Virus record (IMG/VR): IMGVR_UViG_3300035670_000271
Span: 1 to 54,492 of that record
Length of the DNA: 54,492 bases
From: a virus
Taxonomy: Duplodnaviria; Caudoviricetes
Strand: one strand, 5' to 3'
The stretch's first letter is position 1, and each line of letters starts with the position of its first letter. The notes beneath the pieces are model-generated. The model had not been told where the DNA came from. It saw only the letters and a list, made by a program, of their open reading frames with translations, and ran no database searches. Position numbers and translations under genes: made by a program. This document shows, piece after piece, positions 22,921-37,186 of this stretch.

Positions 22921-22935
22921 GAGAGAGGTGAACAC

Positions 22936-24284: not shown

Positions 24285-24285
24285 G

Positions 24286-25638
24286 ATGCAAAAAAATAAA
24301 AATATCGTCGTCTATGCGTTTTTAGCGGTCGCGATAACCATGATCGCCGCCTCGCTCTATCAAAAAGGTGAAATGTGGGTCAAACGGCAAGCCTTCGGCG
24401 ATGTCTTTGACGCGCAATTGGTCAGGGTGTCGGAAAAGGAGGCTGAACTCCGTGTCGCACAACTCGACATGGAGTTGGAGCGCATTGCATATAAGCGATC
24501 TCGGATAGGTGAGACGTCCGCCAAAATCCACAGTATCATTCTTATCCTGATTTGTGGCGGGTTTTTGGTCACGGGGTTGTATGCGACACCGATTTCGTTA
24601 GCTCACCTGCGGGCGAATTCTGTCATTGAACAGCATATCGGGTCATCTGTGTTGCGTATCCACTTCCAGACGGTCAAGAGTCCTGACTTTGCGCAGTTCA
24701 TGGGATTAGTCGCGCATATTGAAGGTGTGAGAGCGCAGAATCCTGAGAAGGCGCTTGAGATGTCATTGCAACTCACAAAAGCGATTACGGGCAGACTTGC
24801 CGCGTTGCCACATCCAGTCCAGTCAAGCTCATCTGCTGCGATGCCACAATTGACGCCCGTGCCGACGTTCCGCCAACTCTATGATGCCGGAAAAGTCGCG
24901 CCTGGTCAACCCCTCTGCATGGGTTTTTGTCAAGGGGAGCCGCAAAATAGAAGCATCAATGAAATCAGAAGCATGGCCGTCGCAGGAGCACAGGGCAGCG
25001 GAAAAACCCTGTCGATTGCGTACCTGATTACAAGCCTGTTGTCAATCGAAAAAGACTCGCAAGGTTTTGTGATCGATCCTCATCACAAGCATCATGAAGG
25101 GCTATGGTCGTACATCTCTCCATTGGAGCAGACTGGAAGGTTGACGCGGGTAGGAGAATTTGAATGCCGGGAGCGGATGGAATGGCTACAAGATCGGCTT
25201 GACGCTCGTCTTAATGACCAAGAGCCATCAACGTCTCTCATCTTTTTTGTTATTGACGAACTTCCCGCAATCGGCAAGATTGACATTTTTCAGCAATCAA
25301 TCTTACCCGTGCTTTCGCGTTGTGTCTCTGAAAGCCGAAAGGCAAGAATTCTCTTCATCGGCGCTGGGACACGCTGGCAGGCGTCTAATTTTGGCGGAGA
25401 CGCTTCAATTCGTCAGACTCTATCATCCCTATGGGTTCACAAGACTAAGCCGTCTCAAGCCGAATTTTTGCTTGAGGATTCGCAAGATCGGAAACTCGTT
25501 AAAGCATTGAAGTCGCCGGGGCAGGCACTCTTGGCAACCGCAAACAGTAGTGACCCAAGCATCGTGACAGTGCCGCTCATTACTAAAAGCGATATTCTCA
25601 CGGTAGCTCAGGCGTTACAACCAAAAGAGGGGTCATGA
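24286..25638 (+). CDS. FtsK/SpoIIIE/TraB-like membrane DNA translocase ATPase
   Basis: Two hydrophobic segments, GAQGSGKT Walker A, VIDP, FFVIDELP Walker B, ESRK. Confidence 0.8.
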   Translation: MQKNKNIVVYAFLAVAITMIAASLYQKGEMWVKRQAFGDVFDAQLVRVSEKEAELRVAQLDMELERIAYKRSRIGETSAKIHSIILILICGGFLVTGLYATPISLAHLRANSVIEQHIGSSVLRIHFQTVKSPDFAQFMGLVAHIEGVRAQNPEKALEMSLQLTKAITGRLAALPHPVQSSSSAAMPQLTPVPTFRQLYDAGKVAPGQPLCMGFCQGEPQNRSINEIRSMAVAGAQGSGKTLSIAYLITSLLSIEKDSQGFVIDPHHKHHEGLWSYISPLEQTGRLTRVGEFECRERMEWLQDRLDARLNDQEPSTSLIFFVIDELPAIGKIDIFQQSILPVLSRCVSESRKARILFIGAGTRWQASNFGGDASIRQTLSSLWVHKTKPSQAEFLLEDSQDRKLVKALKSPGQALLATANSSDPSIVTVPLITKSDILTVAQALQPKEGS

Positions 25639-25663: not shown

Positions 25664-25719
25664 GCATAACGACAGCTTCAGCGGCGAAGAGGGGTGAGCC
25701 ACTCAAGCTGTCGTTAATG
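25664..25719 (-). repeat. attC site (short, terminal)
   Basis: TAACGACAGCTT...AAGCTGTCGTTA stem directly after the last cassette ORF. Confidence 0.7.
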
Positions 25720-25720
25720 A

Positions 25721-25936
25721 TTATTCTTCCCCGCGCCCCTCTGCTATCGTATTATGTTGTCGAATCATTGCCTGTGCATATATTACCGCATGGGTATAAT
25801 CATTTCTTAACGCAATTGATATGCCTCCTAATGGTTGCCATCCTTCACGTATCTTTTGTTTTACATTTTGTTGTAATATTCTGGAAGAGTTCCATTCCTC
25901 AATATGATAATCAACAATATTCATCGTAATTTGCAC
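25721..25936 (-). CDS. Cassette gene: DUF1737-like protein
   Basis: L...V...I.EGWQPLGGISI...YAQAM. Confidence 0.7.
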   Translation of the reverse strand: MQITMNIVDYHIEEWNSSRILQQNVKQKIREGWQPLGGISIALRNDYTHAVIYAQAMIRQHNTIAEGRGEE

Positions 25937-25950
25937 CTATTATTAAATAT

Positions 25951-26032
25951 GCCTAACAAGCCGCATGAGCGGCGAAAACCGCCTGGACGCTGTTCATCTT
26001 GGTTAATAGTTCCCGGCGGTTTTCGTCCGCTC
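25951..26032 (-). repeat. Truncated attC (family A)
   Basis: GCCTAAC..gcatgagcggcgaaaaccgcc...ggcggttttcgtccgctc; right core missing. Confidence 0.75.
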
Positions 26033-26080
26033 TAAGGGAACTTGGTTCACCATATTCTATCACTTAAACTGTGAACGGAG

Positions 26081-26149
26081 GCATAACGCGCTGAGGCCGC
26101 GCCATGCCTCCGTTCACACAATGATTAGTCTTCGCGCCCCGTGTTAGCA
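26081..26149 (-). repeat. Damaged attC (family C)
   Basis: Matches the 31785 site internally; both arms partly lost; GTTAGCA core at 26143. Confidence 0.7.
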
Positions 26150-26397
26150 ATTTCAGCGCCAACCTGAAATGCCATATCACACGCCTCATCAGAAACATAA
26201 TCCAACTCAGAAAAACCGCTCAACGAATATCCTATAAGTTGCGCAAATTGTTCTCTGTCCTCTCGACAAAAAGGCATTCGCGCTATTTGATTCAAATCAA
26301 AAGGGCCGTCATTAAGCAAAAAACGTACAATTCTATTTTCAACAAATCTTAGAATTCCTTTCTCGTCGATTTCTATTGATTGTAAAGGGTGTCTCAT
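26125..26397 (-). CDS. Cassette gene: phage-type hypothetical protein
   Basis: RF.EN.IV..LL...DLN.IA...F..ED.EQFAQLIGYSLSGF.EL.YVSDE. Confidence 0.7.
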   Translation of the reverse strand: MRHPLQSIEIDEKGILRFVENRIVRFLLNDGPFDLNQIARMPFCREDREQFAQLIGYSLSGFSELDYVSDEACDMAFQVGAEIANTGRED

Positions 26398-26529
26398 TCT
26401 GTTCCTCCGTAATTAGAACTTTATCCCAATTCGCTCAGGCGTGTCTTGATACGCATTATTAAGAGCATTCTGGAAACTACCTCTTCCGATATTGACTTCG
26501 TATCCTTCTGATTGTCTCCTTTAAAATAT

Positions 26530-26627
26530 TGCTAACAACGTGCATGAGCGGCGAAAACCGCCTGTGTGCTGTTCATTATTGTGAATCTCGCCCGGCGGTT
26601 TTCGTCCGATCCATGCGATTGTTAGAA
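26530..26627 (-). repeat. attC site (family A)
   Basis: TGCTAAC...GTTAGAA imperfect palindrome with bulged bases. Confidence 0.9.
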
Positions 26628-27445
26628 CGCTCATCTCCCATACTAAAAAGATTCTGCTGCCGCGTGTCCTTCTCGATACGCTGACACGCTTTCTCAAAGA
26701 TTTCCGAGTCTTTCTCCATGCCGATCCATCGTCTGCCGGTTCTAAACGCGGCAACGGCTGTTGTCCCTGAGCCGATCACGTTGTCAAGCACCGTGTCGCC
26801 TTCATTCGTATAGGTTCTGATGAGATATTCAAACAGCGCAACCGGCTTCTGTGTTGAATGTATTGTTAACCCTGATTTTGTTGAGTTGAAAAAATCAGAC
26901 TCAGTTTTTACAGAAAATACTGAACGAGGGAGCCTTGATCCGTCTTTACTTCCTGACTCCTTTATTGGTGAAAATTCCCCATAGTTTCCATTCCGCTTTT
27001 GACGATATTTCTCATTCTTAAAGCTTGGTGTAGTCAACATGAATTTCTGTGGATGATACACGGGTAAACTCTTATAAAACACAAGGATATTTTCATGCCC
27101 TCGCAACGGCATCCTGTTTGAATTCAAAAATCCTGTCGCAATCGACTTCTCCCATACTAAATCGTACCGAAACAGCTTATGATTCGACACGACAAGAAAG
27201 CTGGTGAACGGTTCAGCCGCAGTCAATACAATCGCACCATTCTGTTTGATGATGCGCTCGTACTGTTCCCATAGTGGAGCAAACGGAATAACGACATCCC
27301 ACTTATTTTGAGTCGTGCCATACGGTAAGTCAGCAAGAATCATGTCGATGGAACTGTCAGGAATATCTTGCATTAATTCCAAACAGTCTCCTTCGTAAAT
27401 GATACCATGCTCAAAGTCTTGCTCTCTCACTGGCTGAGTCTCCAT
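26576..27445 (-). CDS. Cassette gene: N6A/N4C DNA methyltransferase (beta class)
   Basis: DLPYG, HSTQKPVAL, LDNVIGSGTT. Confidence 0.92.
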   Translation of the reverse strand: METQPVREQDFEHGIIYEGDCLELMQDIPDSSIDMILADLPYGTTQNKWDVVIPFAPLWEQYERIIKQNGAIVLTAAEPFTSFLVVSNHKLFRYDLVWEKSIATGFLNSNRMPLRGHENILVFYKSLPVYHPQKFMLTTPSFKNEKYRQKRNGNYGEFSPIKESGSKDGSRLPRSVFSVKTESDFFNSTKSGLTIHSTQKPVALFEYLIRTYTNEGDTVLDNVIGSGTTAVAAFRTGRRWIGMEKDSEIFEKACQRIEKDTRQQNLFSMGDERSNNRMDRTKTAGRDSQ

Positions 27446-27450
27446 TTGCG

Positions 27451-27549
27451 TTCTAACAACGCGCATGAGCGGCGAAAACCGCCCTGTGCACTGTTCATCT
27501 TGGTTAATAGTCCCCGGCGGTTTTCGTCCGATCCATGCGATTGTTAGCC
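27451..27549 (-). repeat. attC site (family A)
   Basis: TTCTAAC...GTTAGCC. Confidence 0.9.
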
Positions 27550-27753
27550 TTTTTCCATTATCTTGTCGATCAAAAACTTTACATCATTTTCATGGACATA
27601 CGAATCATCACGACACATGCTCCATGCGTAATCTTTCAACCCTAATTCCTCAACAGTGGGAATATCCCGTAAAACAAAAGCGGCTGTCGCTGGATCGTCC
27701 CGTGTCAGAAACTCTTGCGCCGTCGCAATAGCTTTTTTAGTATGCTCTGTCAT
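27544..27753 (-). CDS. Cassette gene: hypothetical protein
   Basis: RBS AAGGA; stop TAA lies inside the inverse core. Confidence 0.7.
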   Translation of the reverse strand: MTEHTKKAIATAQEFLTRDDPATAAFVLRDIPTVEELGLKDYAWSMCRDDSYVHENDVKFLIDKIMEKG

Positions 27754-27770
27754 TTCCTTCACCTTTAAGT

Positions 27771-27881
27771 GGCTAACGCTTGTTTTGCACCTGACCCAAA
27801 AGGGCGGGCGCAACACGCTTGAAAGTAAACCACTAATTTTTATGCCCGCCCTTTTGGGTCAGGTGCAAAACATTGTTCGCA
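27771..27881 (-). repeat. attC site
   Basis: GGCTAAC...GTTCGCA around a long stem tgttttgcacctgacccaaaagggcgggc. Confidence 0.85.
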
Positions 27882-28021
27882 GGCGTTTTGTGTATTCAAC
27901 ACGACTGCCGTGTTTTTGGTACTTCTGACACCCGCTAAGATGTCAGGTTGCCATCTCGGTTCGGTACGTTGACCGGTGCGTTACCTCACGAAAGCTCTAC
28001 ATGAGAGCAACACTTCACGCC

Positions 28022-28040
28022 TGCGAACGCATTGTTATGC
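28022..28040 (-). repeat. Collapsed attC (cores only)
   Basis: TGCGAAC-gcatt-GTTATGC; each core complements the far end of its neighbouring cassette. Confidence 0.6.
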
Positions 28041-28086
28041 AACTTGTTTATATTGTTAGACATACGAACACTATCCACAGGAGAAA

Positions 28087-28188
28087 GCATAACGACTGCG
28101 ATAACGCGCTGAAGACGCGCCTGCACAGACGCTCGTTCAATGTTAATCTTGCTGCGCGGCTTCAGTCGCGTTCATTGCTTTGTTAGCA
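28087..28188 (-). repeat. attC site (family C)
   Basis: GCATAAC...GTTAGCA. Confidence 0.88.
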
Positions 28189-28451
28189 ATCTGTTCATAT
28201 TTTAAACCATGTGCTCTATGCGCTGCATTTACTGTCTCAAGCGTCGTTTCACACCAATGAAACAAAGGATGATCTTGATTTTTGCACATCCAAGAATCCT
28301 GCAATAATTTTATTTGTTCTTCTATGCGCGATAGATAATCATGAATGCTCATTTTATTAACTCTATCATGAGAATCTGAATGGCAAAAATCAGAAAATCT
28401 TTGTTCTTCTGCGCCCCTATTATATCCGTGACCCCATTGTTTCTTGCCCAT
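28143..28451 (-). CDS. Cassette gene: hypothetical protein
   Basis: RBS AAGGA; the ORF reads through into attC. Confidence 0.65.
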   Translation of the reverse strand: MGKKQWGHGYNRGAEEQRFSDFCHSDSHDRVNKMSIHDYLSRIEEQIKLLQDSWMCKNQDHPLFHWCETTLETVNAAHRAHGLKYEQIANKAMNATEAAQQD

Positions 28452-28473
28452 ACATATCCTTTCGTTCTAAGAT

Positions 28474-28571
28474 TGCTAACAACGCGCATGAGCGGCGAAA
28501 ACCGCCTGGACGCTGTTCATTATTGGTAATCTCGCCCGACGGTTTTCGTCCGATCTATGCGATTGTTATTC
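28474..28571 (-). repeat. attC site (family A)
   Basis: TGCTAAC...GTTATTC. Confidence 0.9.
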
Positions 28572-28796
28572 GTCCTTATCAATACATTCAATTTCTACTT
28601 TGCCGTTTGATTTGATAATAAATACAAACCTTTTTGATTTAGCATTTTCATGCGTTAAATCAAAACGCTGGCGCAATTCAGCAGGGATTGTCATCTGCCA
28701 ATGCTCTGATGTTTTCCCCTGGCTGACTCTTATAGCAATAGGTTTTGATTTGATTTCAAATTGTGGACTCATGCCGGTATTTTGCCCCCAGGCCAA
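28566..28796 (-). CDS. Cassette gene: AbrB/MazE/SpoVT-type DNA-binding protein
   Basis: QMTIPAELRQRFDL...FII..GKVEI. Confidence 0.7.
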   Translation of the reverse strand: MAWGQNTGMSPQFEIKSKPIAIRVSQGKTSEHWQMTIPAELRQRFDLTHENAKSKRFVFIIKSNGKVEIECIDKDE

Positions 28797-28990
28797 AATT
28801 TACGATACTGTGATGCTTCGTAATCAGCTTGCCAGTATTCCTTTTGCGCTAATTCGTAACAATGCTTTAGCCCAGGAGATACCCTCCCGTGTTTTTTTGC
28901 GTCGTCTACCATTTCTTTATGCGCTTCCCGTCTTTTCTTGACGGCTTTATCCAAATCTTTTTTCACGTTACGCCATGCACGGTATCCCAT
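28769..28990 (-). CDS. Cassette gene: small basic protein paired with the AbrB-like gene
   Basis: First ORF downstream of the cassette-internal promoter. Confidence 0.6.
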   Translation of the reverse strand: MGYRAWRNVKKDLDKAVKKRREAHKEMVDDAKKHGRVSPGLKHCYELAQKEYWQADYEASQYRKFWPGGKIPA

Positions 28991-29053
28991 TATATTTCCC
29001 CCATTTCTTGTTTGAGTTCTTTCAACGTCTATACGTTCACTTAACTAATATAC

Positions 29054-29082
29054 AGTATAATATACCGACAGGTATTTGTCAA
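29054..29082 (-). promoter_or_regulatory. Cassette-internal promoter
   Basis: TTGACA-17-TATACT; the spacer holds the palindrome atacc-tgtc-ggtat. Confidence 0.8.
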
Positions 29083-29146
29083 GCGTTTATCAAAAATATT
29101 TACTCTCAGGTGTGATTTTTTCAATAAACGCTGCAAACAGGAAGAC

Positions 29147-29247
29147 GGATAACGAGCGCATAACCGGCTTTGGAGGGCGCGTGCTCACTTCACCACGAGG
29201 TGAAATTCCCCGCGCCCTCCAAAGTCCGGTTCATGCGTTTGTTATGA
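29147..29247 (-). repeat. attC site (family B)
   Basis: GGATAAC...GTTATGA; near-identical to 35734-35833. Confidence 0.9.
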
Positions 29248-29294
29248 CTTCGGTTTATTTTGCGATTGCTACAATACGATCTTTCTTGAATTTA

Positions 29295-29353
29295 CGCTCG
29301 CACCATGTTAGTGTTCCGGCGCGGTTTCAGTCGCGTTCATTGCAGTGTTATAT
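29295..29353 (-). repeat. Half attC (family C)
   Basis: gcgcggtttcagtcgcgttcattgcagtGTTATAT right arm only. Confidence 0.7.
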
Positions 29354-29559
29354 CACCCACCACCTGCCACAGCTTTTCCGAATGATTCTTTCACAGAATG
29401 GACAGATAATTCTCCCCAAATGCAAGGATCGTAAGTCATTTCTTTTTTGATGATTTCCTGCGCTTCTTCTAATGATTCAGCAATAGCGAACGCTAACCCA
29501 GAAGTATAGTCAGGAGAAAACCCTTCCCAAACATATAATTGTAATTTATTTTTTGCCAT
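29353..29559 (-). CDS. Cassette gene: phage-type hypothetical protein
   Basis: LYVWEG...DYTSGLAFAIAES.EEA; RBS GGAGG. Confidence 0.7.
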   Translation of the reverse strand: MAKNKLQLYVWEGFSPDYTSGLAFAIAESLEEAQEIIKKEMTYDPCIWGELSVHSVKESFGKAVAGGG

Positions 29560-29583
29560 GATTCCCTCCGCTCGTAGTTAGTG

Positions 29584-29686
29584 ATATAACGACTGGCATA
29601 ACCGGCAAAAGCCGCGCCAGTACTTGGTTTATAGACTATCCAAATTCGCCGCGCGGCTTTTGTCCGCGTTCATGCCTTTGTTAGGC
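29584..29686 (-). repeat. attC site (family D)
   Basis: ATATAAC...GTTAGGC. Confidence 0.9.
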
Positions 29687-29901
29687 TTCTGTTTCATTTT
29701 GACTGCTGCAATTTCTCGCTCACGCTTCGATTTCGGCATGTTGCGAAAAAAAAAGATCGCGCGTTCAAGATACAAAGGAACTGGCCGTTCTCCTGTCGTC
29801 ATGCGATAAATGACAGGGCGATGAGAGCCTAACAACAAGGCGGCCTGACGTGGATTTAGGCCATATTCCTCCAAGAATGTGTTGAGTTCGTCTTGTGTCA
29901 T
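29629..29901 (-). CDS. Cassette gene: HTH DNA-binding protein (Aca-like)
   Basis: MTQDELNTFLEEYGLNPRQAALLLGSHRPVIYRMTTGERPVP. Confidence 0.75.
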   Translation of the reverse strand: MTQDELNTFLEEYGLNPRQAALLLGSHRPVIYRMTTGERPVPLYLERAIFFFRNMPKSKREREIAAVKMKQKPNKGMNADKSRAANLDSL

Positions 29902-29929
29902 AGCATGAAAGGGGCTTTCGCCCCTCTGT

Positions 29930-30139
29930 TTAGATTTCTGAAAAATCTTGAGCATCAAAATTCAATTCGCCCATGTTCGTTTCTACTGTGTATGATACAG
30001 CGATAAAGTATCCTGGTTTATTTTTGTATATGGTCGGCTCTTCAATTTTTGTTTCGACTCTTTCCGCTGAATACACTTTGCCAGATTCTATTCCAAAAGA
30101 TTTGTTGAAATCGTTATTTGCTTTAACTTGAACTCTCAT
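29930..30139 (-). CDS. Cassette gene: small protein upstream of the HTH gene
   Basis: RBS AAGGAG and ATG 30139 downstream of an internal promoter. Confidence 0.7.
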   Translation of the reverse strand: MRVQVKANNDFNKSFGIESGKVYSAERVETKIEEPTIYKNKPGYFIAVSYTVETNMGELNFDAQDFSEI

Positions 30140-30195
30140 TTTTATTCTCCTTGTTGTTAGTGTTTTTGTTTTCCCTCTCATCAACTTACAAGTTT

Positions 30196-30224
30196 AATAT
30201 AGTACCAATGGTACTTTTTGTCAA
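30196..30224 (-). promoter_or_regulatory. Cassette-internal promoter with operator palindrome
   Basis: TTGACA-17-TATATT; the spacer contains AGTACCA-T-TGGTACT. Confidence 0.8.
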
Positions 30225-30333
30225 GCACTTTCTCACATTTTTTTGAATTATTTTATATAATTCCTGAAAATGCCTGATTCATAGGGAGCACAAGGAGAAA
30301 ATATTTTATCAAAGAACGCTGTTGATGGTAGAA

Positions 30334-30445
30334 GCCTAACGACAAGCTTCAGCAGCTTGGAAGGGCGGGCGGCAACCAAGCGTGAAGTAAAACAACAGAC
30401 TTTCTACGCCCGCCCTTCCAAGTCTGCTGCAAGCATTTGTTCGGG
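30334..30445 (-). repeat. attC site
   Basis: GCCTAAC...GTTCGGG; stem gcttcagcagcttggaagggcgggc with two bulges. Confidence 0.88.
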
Positions 30446-30591
30446 CTTCTTTCGTCTCATAACCACATCCTGCCATAAAAGAAAACTATTGGCTAAAATT
30501 ACCCCAAACCAAGCAATCCCTCTAAACAAACTGATTCCAATTATACTGATGATAATCGCAAAGATACGAATAGTCATCAGTGAACGATTGT

Positions 30592-31344
30592 TTAATATGG
30601 TCTCTTGCATGTTGGACATATCCCTTTTGTTGACGCTGTTGGTTTTGAACCAACATTGATCCCGAAATTTTCTTTGATTGGATGTGGGCCTAAATATACG
30701 CCTTGCGTAAACGACCCCGCACCATATAATAACTCAATAATCTCTTGCTTTTGTTGGTCTGATAATGTTTTAAACCAATCCTGTTCAAATGCAAGAAAAT
30801 TTCGATTGAGAACCTTACAAGATGCAGGAACTGTGCCACCACCTGTAAAGGGATCAAAAATAATTGCTTGCGTTGATGTCAGCCTGTCTATGTAATACAG
30901 ATACGGCCCCGCCTGTTTATGCCACTTATGATTTCCTGATAATAACGCCGGATTCCCATCAACAAAATAATCTCTTGTTGGCTTATTCACAGTAGGAATG
31001 CCCTTTCTAAATACAAGAATAGAGTGCCAACAAGAAAACATTTTCATTGCGCCAAAAATATTGAGTGCTGGACGATAGCAGGCTATTTGCCAAATAAATT
31101 CAATTGTTTCATTTTGAACAGCTTGAAGTGTTTCAAAGAGCCGTTTTTGTGCGTGCCATACTAAACAAGCTGAATTTGGCTTCAATATCCGCGCTGCTGT
31201 TTCTCCGAGCCATTTATAATCATCAACGTTTTCATAAATGGGATCAGTGAAAATCAGGTCAACCGATTCATCGGGAATGCCCTTTGACAATTCTCTGGCA
31301 TCGCCTGTATAGATTTGGTTGAGTTCGTATTCTCCGAGTTTCAC
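30592..31344 (-). CDS. Cassette gene: DNA methyltransferase, probably a chimera with an unrelated C-terminus
   Basis: DLIFTDPIY, HKWHKQ and DPFTGGGT, then unrelated sequence ending CPTC. Confidence 0.8.
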   Translation of the reverse strand: MKLGEYELNQIYTGDARELSKGIPDESVDLIFTDPIYENVDDYKWLGETAARILKPNSACLVWHAQKRLFETLQAVQNETIEFIWQIACYRPALNIFGAMKMFSCWHSILVFRKGIPTVNKPTRDYFVDGNPALLSGNHKWHKQAGPYLYYIDRLTSTQAIIFDPFTGGGTVPASCKVLNRNFLAFEQDWFKTLSDQQKQEIIELLYGAGSFTQGVYLGPHPIKENFGINVGSKPTASTKGICPTCKRPY

Positions 31345-31360
31345 TGTCTCACCTCAAGCA

Positions 31361-31459
31361 GCAGAACAACACGCATGAGCGGCGAAAACCGCCCTGTGCT
31401 CTGCTTATTATTGTTAATAGTCCCCGGCGGTTTTCGTCCGCTCGATGCGATTGTTAGAC
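31361..31459 (-). repeat. attC site (family A)
   Basis: GCAGAAC...GTTAGAC. Confidence 0.9.
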
Positions 31460-31762
31460 ATGATTAATTGCTACCTGCGTTAATTTAGCAATTACCCAAA
31501 CACGTAAGTCTGACAAATCTTTATTCACCTCAGCGGCACACTCAAGCCAGCGTTCTCCCGCCATCACATCGAACAGAATATGTCCCTTATAATCGCCATG
31601 CGTGTATTCTATATTTTTTACAGACATATCCAAAAATTGAGCGCAAGCATTGACTTCTTTCTGTACGGATTCTTGTCTTGCAATCTGCGATTGCAATGCT
31701 TGTGGATCATCATACTTCCCCCTTGCTAATCCTGCTATGTCGGAAAACTTTGATAATTTCAT
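31454..31762 (-). CDS. Cassette gene: hypothetical protein
   Basis: Fills the cassette; stop in the inverse core. Confidence 0.7.
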   Translation of the reverse strand: MKLSKFSDIAGLARGKYDDPQALQSQIARQESVQKEVNACAQFLDMSVKNIEYTHGDYKGHILFDVMAGERWLECAAEVNKDLSDLRVWVIAKLTQVAINHV

Positions 31763-31784
31763 TTCTTACCACTCCTGTGAGTAT

Positions 31785-31885
31785 TGCTAACGACTGGCAT
31801 AACGCGCTGAGGCCGCGCAATGCTGCCGTTCACACAATGTTAATCTTCGCGCGCGGCCTCAGTCGCGTTCATGCCTTCGTTAGAC
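31785..31885 (-). repeat. attC site (family C)
   Basis: TGCTAAC...GTTAGAC. Confidence 0.9.
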
Positions 31886-32126
31886 ATCCTCCCTGTTATC
31901 CTTTGAGCCTCTTTCAACGCTCCCTCTCTCACGATCTTTGATTCTTCAATCCCTGAAACCTCAACAGCCAATTCAATTATATGCCGTTCCTCTTCCGAGA
32001 AACGATAGACCTTACGAATAGTTCGGCGTTTTTCTTCTGGCTTCTCGGCGTTTTTGTATGTGCCAGGGCGGAGTCCCTGGTTTCGATTATCTTCTCGATT
32101 ATCTCTTTGAATTCTAAATCATCCAT
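31840..32126 (-). pseudogene. Frameshifted DUF1778-like RHH antitoxin/regulator cassette gene
   Basis: Adding one C near 32003 gives VRSIRFSEEERHIIELAVEVSGIEESKIVREGALKEAQRI. Confidence 0.6.
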
Positions 32127-32152
32127 ATCTTTTGTTTGTATTACAGAGCGGT

Positions 32153-32263
32153 TTCTAACGATCGCAAATCACCGGCGACAAAGGGCGGGCGGGAAAAGCC
32201 TGTAATACAGCAACCAAGTTTTAGGCCCGCCCTTTGGCGTCCGGTGCATTTGCATTGTTATGC
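32153..32263 (-). repeat. attC site
   Basis: TTCTAAC...GTTATGC. Confidence 0.88.
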
Positions 32264-32452
32264 TGCGTCTATTGTCTTTTCAACTAACTGACGCAGCCAC
32301 TTTTGATACGACTTAAACCCGGCCACTTTTGCCGCCTGAATGATGTGCTTTTTCAATTCCGGCTCACACCTGAAAGACACTTGCACATCTTTTGTGCCGT
32401 CTTTAGTGGAGCCGGTTGGTCTCCCGGCTCCTTCTCGTTTCCCGCCTCGCAT
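32258..32452 (-). CDS. Cassette gene: RHH-type DNA-binding protein
   Basis: RGGKREGAGRP, then VSFRCEPELK...AA...G...WLR. Confidence 0.75.
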   Translation of the reverse strand: MRGGKREGAGRPTGSTKDGTKDVQVSFRCEPELKKHIIQAAKVAGFKSYQKWLRQLVEKTIDAA

Positions 32453-32733
32453 TAGTATGCCTCGTATCCTTCAATTTCCCAATCCAGTTGATCCAACTCC
32501 TCAACCTTATCGAGAGCATCCTGCATCTGGTAGTAATAGGCTACAAGGGTGCGTCGTTCGCCTTCTGCGTCCGTGTAGTTTATGGATGCCGTAAACTCAA
32601 CAGATTGATCGCCGTCCGTCTGTACCCGCCCGCTAAAATCGCAATTCTCACGATCTAATGCTTCAACAACTTCTTTACTAGCTTCTACGATTGCCTGATC
32701 TCTCGTTAATTTACCGTGTCTCATGTGTTTCAC
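32452..32733 (-). CDS. Cassette gene: small acidic protein (anti-defence candidate)
   Basis: D/E-rich 93 aa, TAATG-coupled to the RHH gene, own promoter TTGACA-16-TATATT at 32782-32809. Confidence 0.7.
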   Translation of the reverse strand: MKHMRHGKLTRDQAIVEASKEVVEALDRENCDFSGRVQTDGDQSVEFTASINYTDAEGERRTLVAYYYQMQDALDKVEELDQLDWEIEGYEAY

Positions 32734-32907
32734 CTCGTTTGCTTGACGTTTTTAAAATTTCCATTTACTGAGTATAGTCTTAATATAAGCATTATAGAAT
32801 TTTTGTCAAGCAAATAATCTAAATATTTACACAAACAAGACGATTTTTTGAGGTCAAAACCTGAGAACGCCTGATCTTGTAGGCAAGAACTTTTTACGAG
32901 TGAAGCA

Positions 32908-33014
32908 GCATAACGACGCGCATAACCCGCCAAAAGCCGCGCGCCGAATTGTTTCACGAACACCGGCCACGCTCTCCGCGCGGGTTTTGGTCGGGGTTCA
33001 TGCGATTGTTATGC
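32908..33014 (-). repeat. attC site
   Basis: GCATAAC...GTTATGC. Confidence 0.9.
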
Positions 33015-33203
33015 CGCACATTTCCAAATTTTAACATTCCCCTGATTACTTGCCTTCCAGTAAGCATGCTTTTCTGCCCATCGCATTAGGCGAACAAGGC
33101 TAAATCTTGACACCCCATAATATTTACGATAATGCCACCCGATACACACAAGGTTTTTCACTCCTGGAAGATTATCATATATTGCGATACCTGTCTTCTT
33201 CAT
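33009..33203 (-). CDS. Cassette gene: small basic hypothetical protein
   Basis: RBS AGGGGAG, ATG 33203, stop in the inverse core. Confidence 0.65.
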   Translation of the reverse strand: MKKTGIAIYDNLPGVKNLVCIGWHYRKYYGVSRFSLVRLMRWAEKHAYWKASNQGNVKIWKCAA

Positions 33204-33233
33204 TTCTCCCCTTTGCCGCTTACTTTTTAAGCG

Positions 33234-33374
33234 GCATAACGCTTGGCTTGAGGTGCTTGGGGGACGCCCTTCAGCGGAGCAACCAAGCCCGAACCCCCTC
33301 TGAACGATATGGCGGACAACCTCTGCTGAAATCACCGCGCGTCCCCCAAGTCACCCTCCAAGCCTTTGTTCGCG
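33234..33374 (-). repeat. attC site (long, 141 bp)
   Basis: GCATAAC..ggcttgaggtgcttgggggacgc...gcgtcccccaagtcaccctccaagcc..GTTCGCG. Confidence 0.85.
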
Positions 33375-33385
33375 ATGCTCTCTCG

Positions 33386-34960
33386 TTATAACAATTGTTG
33401 TTGCGTACTTTCTTGAATATGCTTGCCAGCCGTTTTAAAGACGCCATGCGTCGTCATGGGCATTTTGACCTGTTCACCATCCAATAGCTGTTCAATCGTC
33501 AGAAGTTGAATCGTCGGAAACTGTGTCGCATAGACGCCAAGCTGCTCACCATGCGGAGAATAAAAGCCTTCCTGCTTGGCTTCTCGAATCATGGGCGTCG
33601 TCACCTGTTCCTGAAAACACACAAACACTCCAATTGCGGCTTTTTGAGACTTCACGACGTGAATAAACTCTCTCAGGTTCTTGACATTCACCTTGCCGCT
33701 TTTGACTTCGATCAGCACGGTTTCTTTCTTCTTGCCCATCGCAAAGGTCATGTGCCCATCCCATCCGCCATCTGCGGTTTTCTTGGGATTACTGACACCT
33801 GACAACACAAATTCAATGACCCAATCCTGAAATTTAAACCGACCATTGTCGTCACTTTCCGCTAAAGCTTTGGCTGAGGCGATGTCTTTTGGAATGCCAA
33901 ACACTTCAAAGGTGTGACGAATTTCAGCATATTTTGTGTCATACGTCTCCTGAAGGCGTTTCATGACCAGTTTGATTGAGAGATGTGAAATGTCAACGCC
34001 TAACCATCGGCGGCCTAATTTTTGGGCGACAGCGATGGTTGTCCCGCATCCACAGCAAAAGTCAGCCACCAGATCGCCTTCGTTGCTGCTCGTTTTGAGA
34101 ATACGTTCAAGTAGTTCTTCTGGTTTTTGGGTCGGATACCCTAAACGCTCTTTTGCCATTGGATTGATATGAAAAATATCATTCCATAAATTATTCATAG
34201 GAACGCCTTTCAGGGTATTGATGTATTGCTTATATTCTGGCTTTCCTGATTTTGTCCACCGCAACATATCTTGTGATTCAAGGTCGTGTAACTTTTCATC
34301 AGAATATGTTTTCATCGCTTGCCAACGATATTTCCCTTTTACGTCTTGATACTTGAACCGTTTGAGATAAGTTTCTCCATATTCTCGATACAGCTTATTA
34401 AAGGTAAATTGTTCAGTCTTTGTATAAAATAAAATCGTATCAGTATCGGCACTGAATCGTTTTGAGAGAGATTTGCTACTCCCAGTGTTTGTCGTTCTTT
34501 GCCAAATAATTTCATTTTGAAAATATCGTTCACTAAAAATCATATCACAGGCTATCTTCAAATAATGGCTCATTGTTGGGTCACAGTGCAAATAAAAGCT
34601 TCCAGTGTCTTTCAGTACCTTGTACATATACCATATTCTGAGAGCCATCGTACAGAGATACGATATAGCTGCCTTTGGGAGTGACGTATTATCAAGCACA
34701 TTCAGCACGTTATACAGGTCAAGATCAATCTCATGAATCTCGTTCAATGTGTCGAGATAGGACACTTGACTCCATGTATCGGCAAACGCTTCTTTTTGGG
34801 CTTTGGTGTCTTGCAAGTCCACATCTTCAAACAAAATGTTATAGTTCCGTTTTGAGTTAAACGGAGGGTCAATATAAATCAGATCAATAAAGCCGTTTGG
34901 ATGCGCGGCATACAGTTGTTTGAGTATATCGAGATTATCACCAAAATATAATGCATTCAC
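33386..34960 (-). CDS. Cassette gene: DNA methyltransferase fused to a Mrr-like PD-(D/E)xK domain
   Basis: IYIDPPF, YPTQKPE, DFCCGCGTT; C-terminal DGGWDG...IEVKSG. Confidence 0.9.
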   Translation of the reverse strand: MNALYFGDNLDILKQLYAAHPNGFIDLIYIDPPFNSKRNYNILFEDVDLQDTKAQKEAFADTWSQVSYLDTLNEIHEIDLDLYNVLNVLDNTSLPKAAISYLCTMALRIWYMYKVLKDTGSFYLHCDPTMSHYLKIACDMIFSERYFQNEIIWQRTTNTGSSKSLSKRFSADTDTILFYTKTEQFTFNKLYREYGETYLKRFKYQDVKGKYRWQAMKTYSDEKLHDLESQDMLRWTKSGKPEYKQYINTLKGVPMNNLWNDIFHINPMAKERLGYPTQKPEELLERILKTSSNEGDLVADFCCGCGTTIAVAQKLGRRWLGVDISHLSIKLVMKRLQETYDTKYAEIRHTFEVFGIPKDIASAKALAESDDNGRFKFQDWVIEFVLSGVSNPKKTADGGWDGHMTFAMGKKKETVLIEVKSGKVNVKNLREFIHVVKSQKAAIGVFVCFQEQVTTPMIREAKQEGFYSPHGEQLGVYATQFPTIQLLTIEQLLDGEQVKMPMTTHGVFKTAGKHIQESTQQQLL

Positions 34961-35017
34961 ACCTGGCGTTCATCTTTCGTATAGCCTCATATACGCTTAG
35001 TTAAGAGACTATACCAA

Positions 35018-35119
35018 AGCGAACGACTGGCATAACCGGCAACAGCCGCGCCTTCCAGCCGCTTGCACTATGTTAATGTTTCGGCGCGGCTGTTGTCCGC
35101 GTTCATGCCTTTGTTAGCA
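35018..35119 (-). repeat. attC site (family D)
   Basis: AGCGAAC...GTTAGCA. Confidence 0.9.
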
Positions 35120-35136
35120 ATCTGATTTTTATTTAC

Positions 35137-35337
35137 TTGACATATCATAATATACTTACTATCTTTATCTTGATGATAGTTGAGCATAGCGACTTTTTAT
35201 CAAGTCCGCCGTGACTGCTCAGGAAATTAACTCTAATACAAGGATGAAACAAGTTCATTTCGTATAGCGTTATACGTTGCTTTCCAGACTACATCAAAGC
35301 GAACGCCGCCCCAGGTCTAAGCAGCCTGGGGCTTTTC
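35137..35337 (+). ncRNA. Candidate cassette-encoded small RNA (promoter to terminator)
   Basis: TTGACA-17-TATCTT at 35137-35165; no convincing ORF; terminator gccccagg...cctggggctttt at 35308-35336. Confidence 0.5.
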
Positions 35338-35709
35338 ATTATAACATGATAAGCATCCATCTCGTTTATCACACTCCGTCACATCACACGAAGAATTTAC
35401 CATATCATCCTGCATACGTCGCCGTTCTTCATCTGGCAATACATTCCATGCGTATTCTGCATGGTTTAGACAATATTTGCCTCCACAAACCTGCTCAGGC
35501 TCTTCTCCGTGATATTTACGGATAGTATTGACAGATTGAACGCTGATGTAAAGACTGTATCTTGAGTCTGCCTCATCAGTATTTTGAATCTGAATTGTCT
35601 GGTCATGCGGAGTGACAACCTGCACAATTTGAATAATTTCTCCATCGCCATATTCTTCTACTTCTTCTGTATGAATGTTTTTAAAATGAACCCAATCACC
35701 TATTTTCAT
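35317..35709 (-). CDS. Cassette gene: hypothetical protein, Cys-rich C-terminus
   Basis: MKIGDWV N-terminus; several Cys pairs. Confidence 0.7.
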   Translation of the reverse strand: MKIGDWVHFKNIHTEEVEEYGDGEIIQIVQVVTPHDQTIQIQNTDEADSRYSLYISVQSVNTIRKYHGEEPEQVCGGKYCLNHAEYAWNVLPDEERRRMQDDMVNSSCDVTECDKRDGCLSCYNEKPQAA

Positions 35710-35733
35710 ATCTCAATGCCACTCCCATAAGAT

Positions 35734-35833
35734 TGCTAACGAGCGCATAACCGGCTTTGGAGGGCGCGTACTCACTTCCCACGAGGCAAAAGTTCCCGCG
35801 CCCTCCAAAGTCCGGTTCATGCGGTTGTTATGC
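35734..35833 (-). repeat. attC site (family B), first cassette
   Basis: TGCTAAC...GTTATGC. Confidence 0.9.
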
Positions 35834-36034
35834 AGATTTGTCTCCATGAATCGGGAAATTCCATTCACGACATTTCCCATACGCTTCTTTCGCTGCTTTA
35901 TCATCGTTGCCTTTAATGCCAAGTCCGATTTTATCACGACAACTAACTCCACACCATCCAGTTAAATGCGGCTTTACGTGTTGATTACAATATACCCATT
36001 GATTCTCACCAAATACTTTTGCATCTTCTTCCAT
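35828..36034 (-). CDS. First-position cassette gene: small Cys/His hypothetical protein
   Basis: WVYC.QH..PH.TGWC; RBS GAGGAG; stop in the inverse core. Confidence 0.7.
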   Translation of the reverse strand: MEEDAKVFGENQWVYCNQHVKPHLTGWCGVSCRDKIGLGIKGNDDKAAKEAYGKCREWNFPIHGDKSA

Positions 36035-36058
36035 GTCTTTCTCCTCTCTTCATGAACG

Positions 36059-36121
36059 GCATAACAATTATTATATTGACAAATTCTATATCTAATATTA
36101 TATTAATACACAGAAAGTCAA
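36059..36121 (-). promoter_or_regulatory. attI-like site overlapping the integrase promoter
   Basis: Lone G/TTATGC core at 36065 with no hairpin; plus-strand TTGACA-17-TATATT at 36076-36104. Confidence 0.7.
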
Positions 36122-36132
36122 GGAGAAAATAC

Positions 36133-36864
36133 ATGAAAACAAAAAAATATGACGAATATCTACTCTATCTCTATAGTTTTTCACAACTTAGCAAACAAAC
36201 AATCTGTGCGTATCTCTCATGGTCAGCAAAGCTCTGTCTCTGGGTTGGGGTCGCGCATCCGTTGGACGTGCCGCCGGGAAAAATTGACGAATTTCGCCTC
36301 TATCTACTTAACGAGAAAAAATTCTCATGGAAGAGCGATACGGTTGTGTTTAACGCTTTGAAGCACACCTACTCGACGCTCTTGAAACATGTTGAACCAG
36401 AAGAGGCCAAGAAATATGCGAATATCTTCCGCACGTCACCACGACAGCCTAACACCCTGCCGCGCTATGTGACACAGGAGAGCATGGCCGCCTTTTGCGC
36501 GGCGCTTCCTGCGACGATTGCAGGCAATCTCTTGCGATCAAGCTATCAGACGGGAAAAACGGTAGATATGATTTTGGCCAAGGCGGAAAAGCCCTGGAAA
36601 GTCTCGCAGAGATACCTGCAACAAGTTTGTCTAAAGACCGCGCTGAAAGTCGGTATGCCGAAAGGGTTCGGCGTGACCGGAGTCAGGGGTGCTGGCATCT
36701 TACACAGAATCCAAAACCGACAGACGGATTTAGAATTGACAGCCATTCGTGAGGATTCCGGCCTGTCACATGCGCAGTTTCTCTTGTATTGTCGAGCGGC
36801 AGGTGTGACCGGGTTATCTGGGAATGCAACCAGACAACGCCACCGCAAGAAGAAGCAAGCATAA
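36133..36864 (+). CDS. intI: Integron-integrase (IntI)-derived protein, internally deleted and probably catalytically inactive
   Basis: S.QT..AY..W......GV.HP......I.EF..YL.NE.K.S, PR..NTLP..T and Y.TG align with IntI1; box I R and box II H residues replaced. Confidence 0.8.
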   Translation: MKTKKYDEYLLYLYSFSQLSKQTICAYLSWSAKLCLWVGVAHPLDVPPGKIDEFRLYLLNEKKFSWKSDTVVFNALKHTYSTLLKHVEPEEAKKYANIFRTSPRQPNTLPRYVTQESMAAFCAALPATIAGNLLRSSYQTGKTVDMILAKAEKPWKVSQRYLQQVCLKTALKVGMPKGFGVTGVRGAGILHRIQNRQTDLELTAIREDSGLSHAQFLLYCRAAGVTGLSGNATRQRHRKKKQA

Positions 36865-36874
36865 CAGATAGAAT

Positions 36875-37177
36875 CTATATCGCATAAGACTTCCGAATTC
36901 CGGCGTAAATCGCTCGGTAAACGAACCACCACGCCAACGTAATGGGGATATTGGCAAGAATCCAATCCACCACTGGCAAAAACGCAAACTGAGCGCCCAC
37001 AATCGTTTCTACGACGCGGGGGGCATGATGGAGGATTACGCCACACGCCACAAGATTTACGAGCACCTGTGGCGTGTAGACCCTATAAATTCGGTAACTC
37101 TGAATAGCGAGCGCCAAAAAGATCGCAAACTCTAACGCCATGAGGCAAAACGAAATACTATACAGAATCGTCTTCAT
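36875..37177 (-). CDS. Membrane protein with 3 predicted TM segments (holin candidate)
   Basis: Three hydrophobic segments and a basic C-terminus. Confidence 0.5.
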   Translation of the reverse strand: MKTILYSISFCLMALEFAIFLALAIQSYRIYRVYTPQVLVNLVACGVILHHAPRVVETIVGAQFAFLPVVDWILANIPITLAWWFVYRAIYAGIRKSYAI

Positions 37178-37186
37178 CTCTTCCTC

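What the first reader, a model, noticed from the sequence alone, without database searches (positions are those of the whole stretch)
36133..36864. Intact-ORF but catalytically stripped IntI homologue at the head of the array
Seen: the N-terminal domain aligns by eye with IntI1 (LSKQTICAYLSW...GVAHP...EFRLYLLNEKKFS versus YSLRTEQAYVHW...GVRHP...AFLSWLANERKVS). YGTGMR has become YQTGKT, losing the catalytic Arg. About 100 aa are absent, including the catalytic Lys hairpin and the integron-specific insert. HTLRH has become TGVRG and LGH has become SGL, while the second Arg and the terminal Tyr remain. The ORF, RBS and a consensus promoter are intact. Inference: a repurposed att-binding protein that may repress the attI promoters, shield cassettes from excision, or modulate a host IntI that shuffles the array in trans.
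Basis: partly seen in the sequence, partly recalled or inferred. Interest (0 to 1): 0.88.

Follow-up and report, generated by a model that had tools for sequence, protein, structure and literature searches.

The report
Shrunken integron-integrase relative heading a phage cassette array
A complete 54-kb phage carries a genuine integron-style array of 18 gene cassettes, and in the integrase position sits a conserved, shortened relative of the integron integrase that has lost most of the catalytic machinery and probably only binds the recombination sites.

Summary
ORF 36133-36864 (+) encodes a 243-aa protein with a consensus-like promoter and an RBS. Residues 7-157 are homologous to integron integrases (family profile vs VchIntIA, E 7e-16; hhalign vs IntI, E 5e-13). 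Box I reads YQTGKT where IntI has YGxGxR. About 92 residues between Box I and Box II are missing, including the Lys hairpin and the IntI-specific insert. Only Arg-II (R185) and the Tyr (Y219) remain.

It is not a one-off wreck. Eight full-length homologues of 219-264 aa (27-46% identity) share this architecture, and the C-terminal remnant is their best-conserved part.

The array is real. It has 18 attC sites with canonical geometry (C16, T23/24). A covariance model built from them finds 12 of 12 attCs beside a Vibrio intI, on the same relative strand. The R-box halves pair cassette by cassette (51/72 against 31/72; 0 of 20000 permutations), including at an attI-like junction 68 nt upstream of the ATG.

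No Pfam PF00589 or PF00239 recombinase domain was detected in the phage.

My best reading is a non-catalytic, IntI-derived att-site-binding protein, acting as regulator or gatekeeper, with catalysis supplied in trans. DNA binding is not shown. An AU test does not exclude Xer affinity.

The parts
36133..36864 (+). CDS of P0001, 243 aa: a shortened IntI-related protein
   Evidence: Eight full-length homologues of 219-264 aa.
36178..36387 (+). N-terminal SAM-like / core-binding domain (residues 16-85)
   Evidence: PF13495, E 1.4e-7. VchIntIA is the best PDB hit. hhalign against IntI gives E 5e-13 over residues 7-157.
36544..36561 (+). Box I remnant YQTGKT (residues 138-143). T143 occupies the Arg-I position.
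   Evidence: HMM alignments. The Arg-I column holds T,P,K,T,S,P,P,K,- in the 9 members.
36604..36810 (+). Helical remnant of the catalytic domain (residues 158-226), with R185 (36685-36687) and Y219 (36787-36789). It follows the scar of a deletion of about 92 aa.
   Evidence: Weak collinear hhalign. Fold match with TM 0.64-0.74. Best-conserved segment of the family at 40.9% mean identity.
36076..36104 (+). Sigma-70-like promoter of P0001 (TTGACA-17-TATATT), followed by the RBS AAGGAG at 36120-36125
   Evidence: This is a consensus match only.
36059..36065 (+). attI-like R box GCATAAC: the junction with the first cassette, 68 nt upstream of the ATG
   Evidence: It is the exact complement (7/7) of the 3' box GTTATGC of the first attC, 35734-35833.
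36067..36121 (-). Two promoter-like sites facing the cassettes (candidate Pc), overlapping the P0001 promoter
   Evidence: 9/12 each. These are weak consensus matches.
25664..35833 (-). Array of 18 cassettes whose ORFs lie mostly on the - strand, so the + strand is the attC bottom strand. The attC sites are 25664-25719, 25951-26051, 26070-26118, 26530-26627, 27451-27549, 27771-27881, 28087-28188, 28474-28571, 29147-29247, 29584-29686, 30334-30445, 31361-31459, 31785-31885, 32153-32263, 32908-33014, 33234-33374, 35018-35119 and 35734-35833.
   Evidence: MTase cassettes are shown.
36859..36865 (+). A further GCATAAC box overlapping the P0001 stop codon. Its significance is unknown.

Best explanation
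P0001 belongs to a small, conserved family of miniaturised IntI-related proteins. It keeps the N-terminal core-binding domain and the helical core of the catalytic domain. It has lost the beta-sheet with the catalytic Lys, the IntI-specific insert, Arg-I and both His residues, so it cannot perform canonical tyrosine-recombinase chemistry.

It sits where intI sits in an integron: divergent from a genuine array of 18 attC cassettes, with the attI-like junction inside its own promoter region.

Most likely it is a sequence- or structure-specific att-site-binding protein whose targets are the GCATAAC/GTTATGC-type R and L boxes. At attI it would control its own promoter and the cassette-facing promoter. 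At attI and attC it would gate access of a recombinase supplied in trans, most plausibly a host IntI.

Shown: homology, loss of active-site residues, conservation, position, and authenticity of the array.

Inferred: DNA binding, the regulatory or gatekeeping role, and trans catalysis.
For: Homology to IntI over residues 7-157:
- Family profile vs PDB: VchIntIA E 7e-16, XerA 1e-7, XerD 1e-3.
- hhalign vs 5 IntIs: score 94.3, E 3.4e-13. Against 5 XerC/D: score 47.7, E 3.8e-6.
- TIGR02249 is the best NCBIfam hit for P0001 and matches 9 of 11 aligned rows.
- 19 of the 30 listed plasmid tblastn hits lie under genes annotated 'integron integrase'.
- The ML tree joins the family to IntI with support 99/93.

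Loss of catalysis:
- Arg-I present in 0/9 members, His-II in 0/9, and position 211 is Leu in 9/9.
- About 92 aa are deleted, including the Lys hairpin.
- PF00589 is matched by 0 of 11 rows at E<=1.

The fold is retained:
- The ESM Atlas model (pLDDT 0.75) aligns 211-220 residues to two-domain tyrosine recombinases at TM 0.71-0.74.
- Residues 112-228 align to PF00589 domains at TM 0.64-0.72.

It is not decay:
- Eight full-length homologues have the same length class and the same deletion.
- The C-terminal remnant is the most conserved part: 40.9% identity, against 32.8% for the CB domain and 24.4% for the linker.

Context:
- There are 18 attC sites with canonical geometry: C at position 16 in 14/18 and T at position 23 in 10/18 (plus T at 24 in five more, read off the listing by eye). 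Nivina 2016 (PMC5027507, passages read) gives the canon as G16, T23/24 and a 6-bp stem.
- 13 of 20 consensus pairs show compensatory changes.
- A model built only from the phage sites finds 12 intergenic attCs next to an annotated Vibrio intI. All are on the same relative strand, at E 1e-10 to 4e-5.
- It finds nothing outside the array in the phage.
- The 3' box of each site is complementary to the 5' box of its cassette-mate site in 51/72 positions, against 31/72 for its own 5' box. None of 20000 permutations reached 51. The attI-like GCATAAC at 36059-36065 fits this pattern.
- GCATAAC occurs 24 times against 7.35 expected, and 16 copies lie in the array or attI.
- No PF00589 or PF00239 match at E<=10 anywhere in the complete genome.

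Precedent: MrpR of phage SPbeta has a tyrosine-recombinase fold, retains 3 of 7 catalytic residues, shows no recombination and acts as a repressor on repeated sites (PMC10516654, passages read).
Against: - No binding or regulatory data exist.
- The AU test does not reject a family+XerC/D clade (delta lnL 7.2, p 0.279). The family stem is long (2.37).
- The C-terminal residue assignments rest on a weak alignment (E 0.01, probability 4%) and on a third-party predicted model.
- Invariant R185 and R192 and near-invariant Y219 and Y161 could mean residual or unorthodox chemistry.
- The genomic context of the homologues is unknown. The one extra locus, L011, is 1.1 kb and lacks the upstream side.
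- The host, and whether it has an IntI, are unknown.
- The attC EHB at position 16 is C, not the usual G, so the cognate recombinase may not be an ordinary IntI.
Confidence: 0.55

Rival explanations
1. Positive cofactor. P0001 is the platform-specific targeting subunit. It binds attI and recruits a host IntI (or Xer) so that cassettes are captured into the phage array, standing in for the non-cleaving protomers of the synapse.
For: - The same structural evidence as for the best explanation applies.
- The cassette-by-cassette R-box pairing and the attI junction show that insertions at this attI did happen, although no PF00589 or PF00239 recombinase domain was detected in the phage.
- In IntI synapses half of the protomers do not cleave (Escudero 2016, PMC4792948, passages read).
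Against: - The IntI insert that reads the extrahelical bases is deleted, as are large parts of the protomer-protomer interface.
- No host is known.
- The insertions may predate the shortening of the protein.
Confidence: 0.17
2. General phage transcription regulator of the MrpR type. It would control, for example, a lysis/maintenance switch, and its neighbourhood to the array is historical only.
For: - The MrpR precedent.
- The gene has its own strong promoter-like site.
- Seven GCATAAC copies lie outside the array/attI: one overlaps the P0001 stop codon at 36859-36865 and six lie further along the genome.
- A weak ParM-like neighbour hints at a plasmid-like lifestyle.
Against: - 16 of 24 GCATAAC boxes lie in the array or attI.
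- There is no match to PF22823 or any repressor family.
- The closest relatives are IntI, whose sites are exactly the neighbouring ones.
Confidence: 0.12
3. Unorthodox but active recombinase. A minimal enzyme would use R185, R192, K142 and Y219 (or Y161) and shuffle the array itself.
For: - R185, R192 and Y161 are invariant and Y219 is present in 8/9 members.
- The C-terminal remnant is the most constrained part.
- No PF00589 or PF00239 domain was detected elsewhere in the phage.
- The array bears the marks of site-specific assembly.
Against: - Arg-I, the Lys hairpin and both His residues are absent.
- For Cre and its relatives, substitutions at these positions abolish recombination. This is established knowledge; Gibb 2010, PMC2943603, was seen only as a search listing.
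- K142 is not conserved: it reads C, H or Q in 3 of 9 members.
Confidence: 0.09
4. Functionless relic of the integron's former integrase.
For: IntI genes are often inactivated. Many fragments with stop codons were seen among the 201 sampled genomes.
Against: - The ORF is intact, with a promoter-like site and an RBS.
- Eight diverged homologues have the same architecture and no random truncations.
- The remnant domain is the best-conserved part.
Confidence: 0.07

Closest known systems
Integron integrases (IntI; TIGR02249; VchIntIA, PDB 2a3v)
   Same: - The N-terminal core-binding domain and the start of the catalytic domain are homologous.
- Gene position and orientation are the same: divergent from attI plus an attC array, as beside the Vibrio intI.
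- Arg-II and the Tyr are retained.
   Different: - 243 aa against 320-337 aa.
- About 92 aa are missing, including the Lys hairpin and the IntI-specific insert.
- Arg-I and both His residues are replaced.
- It scores 22 bits against a cut-off of 265.
- It is sister to the sampled IntIs, not nested within them.
MrpR (YopR) of Bacillus phage SPbeta (PDB 8A0A; Kohm et al. 2023, PMC10516654)
   Same: It is a phage protein with a tyrosine-recombinase fold that has lost most catalytic residues, does not recombine, and works as a DNA-binding repressor on repeated sites.
   Different: - MrpR keeps the full-size catalytic domain, including the beta-strands and the Lys.
- It is not IntI-related and is not next to attC sites.
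- P0001 does not match PF22823.
- Function is demonstrated for MrpR and only inferred here.
CALINs and integron fragments in phages (Qi et al. 2023, PMC9892861)
   Same: attC clusters occur in virulent or uncharacterised phages. DNA methyltransferases were found among their cassettes, and the phage attCs were usable by IntI1.
   Different: - That section (3.4) describes 17 CALINs, each with a minimum of two attC sites, lacking an integrase.
- Here there are 18 sites plus a conserved integrase-derived gene and an attI-like junction.
- The paper's supplementary tables could not be opened, so a similar gene there cannot be excluded.
Inactivated intI pseudogenes of chromosomal integrons
   Same: Loss of integrase activity next to a persisting array.
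   Different: Pseudogenes decay by stop codons and irregular truncation (examples). This protein is an intact, conserved short form.
XerC/XerD
   Same: Same superfamily, with a similar CB domain.
   Different: - Profile similarity is about half that to IntI.
- The tree places Xer apart, although the AU test does not exclude the grouping.
- Xer sites have no extrahelical bases (PMC4792948).

Membership tests
Integron integrase (IntI, TIGR02249) | Score at or above the curated HMM cut-off | tested here: not met
   22.3 bits against a cut-off of 265. It is nevertheless the best NCBIfam hit.
Integron integrase (IntI, TIGR02249) | Complete R-K-H-R-H/W-Y active site | tested here: not met
   Only Arg-II (R185) and the Tyr (Y219) are present. 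Arg-I is T, His-II is T, H/W-III is L, and the Lys hairpin is deleted.
Integron integrase (IntI, TIGR02249) | IntI-specific additional domain (I2 helix) that reads the extrahelical bases | tested here: not met
   It lies within the roughly 92 aa that have no counterpart. The feature is as described in PMC4792948.
Integron integrase (IntI, TIGR02249) | Closer to IntI than to XerC/D | tested here: inconclusive
   Profiles favour IntI and the ML tree gives 99/93. The AU test does not reject a clade with Xer (p 0.279).
Integron integrase (IntI, TIGR02249) | Gene adjacent to and divergent from attI and an attC array | tested here: met
Integron integrase (IntI, TIGR02249) | Catalyses attI x attC recombination | not testable with these tools
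   Needs a recombination assay.
Tyrosine recombinase catalytic domain (PF00589) | Pfam HMM match | tested here: not met
   0 of 11 rows at E<=1. No match at E<=10 in the six-frame search of the genome.
Tyrosine recombinase catalytic domain (PF00589) | Fold | tested here: inconclusive
   The ESM Atlas model gives TM 0.64-0.74 to PF00589 proteins.
attC recombination sites (for the neighbouring array) | Imperfect hairpin with AAC/GTT R box, unpaired spacer, extrahelical bases at positions 16 and 23/24 on the arm opposite AAC, variable loop, and length of 57-141 nt | tested here: met
   -. The lengths are 49-141 nt, so two sites (49 and 56 nt) fall below the cited 57-141 range, and position 16 is C rather than the usual G.
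- The model cross-detects 12 of 12 intergenic Vibrio attCs.
Complete integron (IntegronFinder sense) | Functional-looking intI together with attC sites | tested here: not met
   The integrase criteria fail. I expect it would be called a CALIN. IntegronFinder itself was not run.
MrpR-like repressors (PF22823) | Pfam match | tested here: not met
   It is not among the hits at E<=10.

The most novel reading that the evidence does not exclude
This phage carries a self-contained viral integron platform whose integrase lineage is a sister of all bacterial IntIs. That lineage has been reduced to a non-catalytic att-site reader which borrows the catalytic protomers of the host's IntI. The phage would then draw on, and feed, the host's cassette pool (methyltransferases and other counter-defence genes) while controlling when its own array is touched.

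It would be the first dedicated 'integron parasite' protein. It would also be a living link for the proposed viral connection of integrons.
Probability: 0.2. Interest if true: 0.9.

Novelty: new variant of a known kind. Interest (0 to 1): 0.72.

Why it matters
Integrons are regarded as bacterial devices. Phage reports so far are mostly small attC clusters without an integrase. Here a complete phage genome has three things together:
- an 18-cassette array with canonical attC geometry;
- sequence marks of cassette-by-cassette insertion at an attI;
- a conserved, shortened integrase relative that cannot work as an ordinary recombinase.

If the protein is an att-site reader, it gives a natural tool to separate site recognition from catalysis in integron recombination. 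It would be a second, independent case, after MrpR, of a tyrosine recombinase turned into a DNA-binding factor. It would also give a handle on how phages assemble counter-defence genes such as methyltransferases.

It also makes Escudero et al.'s speculation about a viral origin of integrons testable on a concrete lineage.

Tried and rejected
Searches that found nothing useful:
- blastn of 35000-38000 and tblastn of P0001 against 50,697 phage records: no match.
- PHROGs: no family.
- Rfam on the whole window: nothing.
- The word-indexed protein search found only the query itself. With the family profile it found only 3 members.
- IMG/VR scans with the family alignment, with two flanking proteins, with a 21-nt attC core and with a back-translated motif: no relatives.
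- The same attC core in 185,579 species genomes: four single, scattered matches in unrelated taxa, taken as chance.
- The back-translated motif in the species genomes: one match, antisense inside an unrelated gene.
- Metagenome scan with P0013: nothing.
- Metagenome scan with the motif: 9 loci, of which only L011 is a relative.
- PDB searches with the 410-aa and 469-aa proteins at the far end of the array showed no recombinase.
- Ten cassette ORFs gave only one weak DUF1737 match in Pfam.

Analyses that were limited or could not be done:
- Reads. Contigs of 4 runs from one study cover the region without differences in P0001. No contig joins across a cassette. Single loose ends at attC boxes are only hints. 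Parts without cover in X3 and X4 mean nothing.
- dN/dS could not be done. No DNA of the homologues is held except a half gene at 49% amino-acid identity.
- The host could not be inferred.

Ideas considered and rejected:
- That the repeats are mere terminators or PeSL-like promoter stem-loops. This is contradicted by the AAC/GTT boxes, the 16/23 geometry, the cross-detection of Vibrio attCs and the cassette-mate complementarity.

Literature:
- I found no description of a conserved short IntI-like family in searches.
Full report
THE WINDOW

The window is one complete virus record: 54,492 bp, 127-bp direct terminal repeats, estimated 100% complete. It is a tailed phage with portal, large terminase, helicase/primase and minor tail protein genes. 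No relative was found in INPHARED or IMG/VR. Four sequencing runs from one study (subsurface and soil metagenomes) hold it, and two of these may be its source.

THE ORF

The ATG lies at 36133 and the stop ends at 36864, giving 243 aa (P0001). AAGGAG lies at 36120-36125. A TTGACA-17-TATATT site lies at 36076-36104, matching 11 of 12 consensus positions. It is the only + strand gene between the structural module and the array, both of which are on the - strand.

A FAMILY, NOT A WRECK

An exhaustive HMMER search of 1.84 billion representative proteins gave 11 hits at E<=1e-3.
- Eight are full-length homologues (P0002-P0009; 219-264 aa; 27-46% identity).
- One is a fragment (P0010).
- P0011 (a repeat protein) and P0012 (an IntI N-terminus joined to a head-tail-joining domain) are not members.
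- All are singletons or doubletons from metagenomes.
- One more partial member was found on a 1.1-kb metagenome contig, L011.

The members share one architecture and one internal gap. Mean pairwise identity by segment is 32.8% in the core-binding domain, 24.4% in the linker, 33.3% around Box I and 40.9% in the C-terminal remnant. The part a pseudogene would lose first is the best kept. By contrast, decayed intI genes in sampled Gammaproteobacteria show stop codons and irregular truncations.

RELATION TO IntI

- P0001 alone matches PF13495 (E 1.4e-7). In the PDB it matches only VchIntIA.
- The family profile scores VchIntIA at 61.7 bits (E 7e-16), XerA at 34.7 bits and XerD at 21.9 bits.
- hhalign against three annotated IntIs gives probability 97.9 and E 5e-13 over family positions 7-157.
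- Against five IntIs the score is 94.3. Against five XerC/D it is 47.7. The XerC/D identity of those rows was checked.
- TIGR02249 is the best NCBIfam hit, but at 22 bits against a cut-off of 265.

I built an IQ-TREE on 152 columns with these rows: 9 family members; 23 IntIs (20 from a sample of Gammaproteobacteria, 3 from plasmids); 5 XerC/D; and 3 other recombinases as outgroup. One truncated Xer row and the unpublished L048 were left out.
- The family forms a clade (100/99).
- The IntIs form a clade (96/90).
- The two are joined (99/93), with Xer apart.

The AU test does not reject a family+Xer clade (delta lnL 7.2, p 0.279). The family stem is also long. IntI affinity is therefore the favoured reading, not a proven one. 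The family is sister to the sampled IntIs rather than nested among them.

WHAT IS LEFT OF THE CATALYTIC DOMAIN

The HMM alignments pair YQTGKT (138-143) with YGSGLR. The key columns in the nine full-length members read as follows:
- Arg-I column: T,P,K,T,S,P,P,K,- . None is Arg.
- His-II column: T,S and then R seven times.
- Arg-II: R185 in 9/9.
- H/W-III column: L in 9/9.
- Tyrosine: Y219 in 8/9.

From T143 to R185 there are 42 residues. An annotated IntI has 134 between R144 and R278. About 92 residues are therefore gone: the beta-sheet with the Lys and the IntI-specific insert.

The C-terminal alignment alone is weak (E 0.01, probability 4%) but collinear. It agrees with the ESM Atlas model of this very protein (pTM 0.59, pLDDT 0.75):
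- 211-220 residues superpose on two-domain tyrosine recombinases at TM 0.71-0.74.
- Residues 112-228 superpose on PF00589 domains at TM 0.64-0.72.

PF00589 itself is not matched.

THE ARRAY IS A GENUINE attC ARRAY

Eighteen imperfect hairpins lie between 25664 and 35833.
- Of the 20 AAC...GTT windows in the genome that fold at -0.39 kcal/nt or lower, 17 lie in this 10-kb stretch.
- Each site has a TAAC/GTTA R box, a partly unpaired spacer, a conserved L box (GCATAAC...GTT-C-ATGC) and a variable loop.
- Counted from the 3' end of the + strand, position 16 is C in 14/18 sites and position 23 is T in 10/18. Five more sites have the T at position 24; I read that count off the listing by eye.
- This is the geometry that Nivina et al. 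2016 describe for the attC bottom strand: G16, T23/24, a 6-bp stem between them, and extrahelical bases on the arm opposite AAC (PMC5027507, passages read). The one difference is C in place of G.
- 13 of 20 consensus pairs show compensatory changes.
- A covariance model built only from these 18 sites finds nothing else in the phage. All 18 sites score higher on the + strand than on the - strand.
- In 12 kb next to an annotated Vibrio intI, the model finds 12 sites at E 1e-10 to 4e-5. All are intergenic, and all lie on the same strand relative to intI as the phage sites do relative to P0001.

Cassette ORFs lie mostly on the - strand, so the + strand is the bottom strand, as in integrons. Three cassettes encode N6/N4 DNA methyltransferases, one of them with an Mrr-like domain.

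MARKS OF SITE-SPECIFIC ASSEMBLY

If cassettes were inserted one by one at G|TT, the two halves of a cassette's own R box end up in neighbouring sites. The data fit this.
- The four variable bases of each site's 3' box are complementary to the 5' box of the next-higher site in 51 of 72 positions.
- The figure is 31 of 72 for the site's own 5' box and 19-35 of 60-68 for other offsets.
- None of 20,000 permutations reached 51 (mean 31.6, maximum 49).
- The first attC (3' box GTTATGC) pairs 7/7 with GCATAAC at 36059-36065. This attI-like junction lies 68 nt upstream of the P0001 ATG, 11 nt from its -35 hexamer, and next to two weak promoter-like sites that face the cassettes.
- GCATAAC is over-represented: 24 copies against 7.35 expected, with 16 in the array or attI.

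WHO CATALYSES?

No PF00589 or PF00239 match exists anywhere in the complete genome at E<=10. The large proteins at the far end of the array look like a weak ParM (E 0.04) and a HerA/FtsK-type P-loop protein, not recombinases. There are two possibilities. The insertions may be old, from when the lineage still had an enzyme. Or a recombinase acts in trans. The canonical extrahelical-base geometry points to an IntI-type enzyme rather than Xer (PMC4792948).

MECHANISM I COMMIT TO

P0001 is a non-catalytic reader of the R and L boxes. Bound at attI, it would sit on its own promoter and on the cassette-facing promoter. On attI and attC, it would decide whether a trans-acting IntI can work. I put this at about 0.55.

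The rivals are: a positive cofactor of a host IntI (0.17); a general MrpR-type regulator (0.12); an unorthodox active enzyme (0.09); and a relic (0.07).

The closest functional precedent is MrpR of SPbeta. It has the tyrosine-recombinase fold, only 3 of 7 catalytic residues and no recombination activity, and it is a repressor that binds repeated sites (PMC10516654). The closest contextual precedent is the set of attC clusters lacking an integrase in phages, some with methyltransferase cassettes (Qi et al. 2023, PMC9892861; abstract and section 3.4 read).

LIMITS

- There are no binding data.
- The context of the homologues is unknown.
- The host is unknown.
- Phylogenetic placement is not decisive.
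- Fold evidence comes from a third-party predicted model.

Noticed in passing
window 26576-27466 (-), 30592-31344 (-), 33386-34960 (-): Three cassettes encode N6/N4 DNA methyltransferases, the largest fused to an Mrr/restriction-endonuclease-like domain. They look like anti-restriction cargo. Of the ten other cassette ORFs scanned, nine have no Pfam match and one has only a weak DUF1737 match.
   Followed up: partly
window 22801-24033 (+) and 24229-25638 (+): The far end of the array is flanked by a 410-aa protein with a weak ParM/StbA likeness (E 0.04) and a 469-aa protein with a HerA/FtsK-type P-loop. This hints at a plasmid-like (phage-plasmid) lifestyle. No integrase is present.
   Followed up: partly
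window 36859-36865 and 36882-36887: A GCATAAC box overlaps the P0001 stop codon and a GCATAA follows 23 nt later. The whole module 25664-36865 is thus bounded by GCATAAC in direct orientation. This may be chance.
   Followed up: no
L011 1-255 (-): Downstream of the partial family member on this 1.1-kb metagenome contig, an ORF running off the contig begins with a stretch that resembles the start of a tyrosine-recombinase catalytic domain (...ALTDHEIHTLLAATTPRNRVL). It is too short to test. If real, some relatives may pair with a separate catalytic protein.
   Followed up: no
protein P0012: A 240-aa metagenomic protein joins a strong IntI-type N-terminus to a phage head-tail-joining domain (NF047331, E 9e-17). 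It is not a member of the family, but it is another IntI piece in a phage setting.
   Followed up: no
window 25675, 25744, 26624, 27454 (loose ends in runs X1 and X2): Single contigs match up to an attC box and then continue with other sequence, some of it attC-like. The samples may hold other neighbours for these cassettes, or related arrays. Assembly graphs break at the repeated attCs, so this is weak evidence.
   Followed up: partly
window 26781, 29075, 30218, 32802: A short motif (TTTGTCAAGC...) recurs inside four cassettes (repeat families D12 and D13). It may be a cassette-internal promoter or operator. Three ORFs inside the array (27656-27928, 28600-28941, 29076-29450) lie on the + strand, opposite to the rest.
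   Followed up: no
window attC sites, position 16: The extrahelical base in the L box is C in 14 of 18 sites, where bacterial attCs usually have G. The 12 Vibrio sites found with the same model show G there in the two alignments printed.
   Followed up: partly
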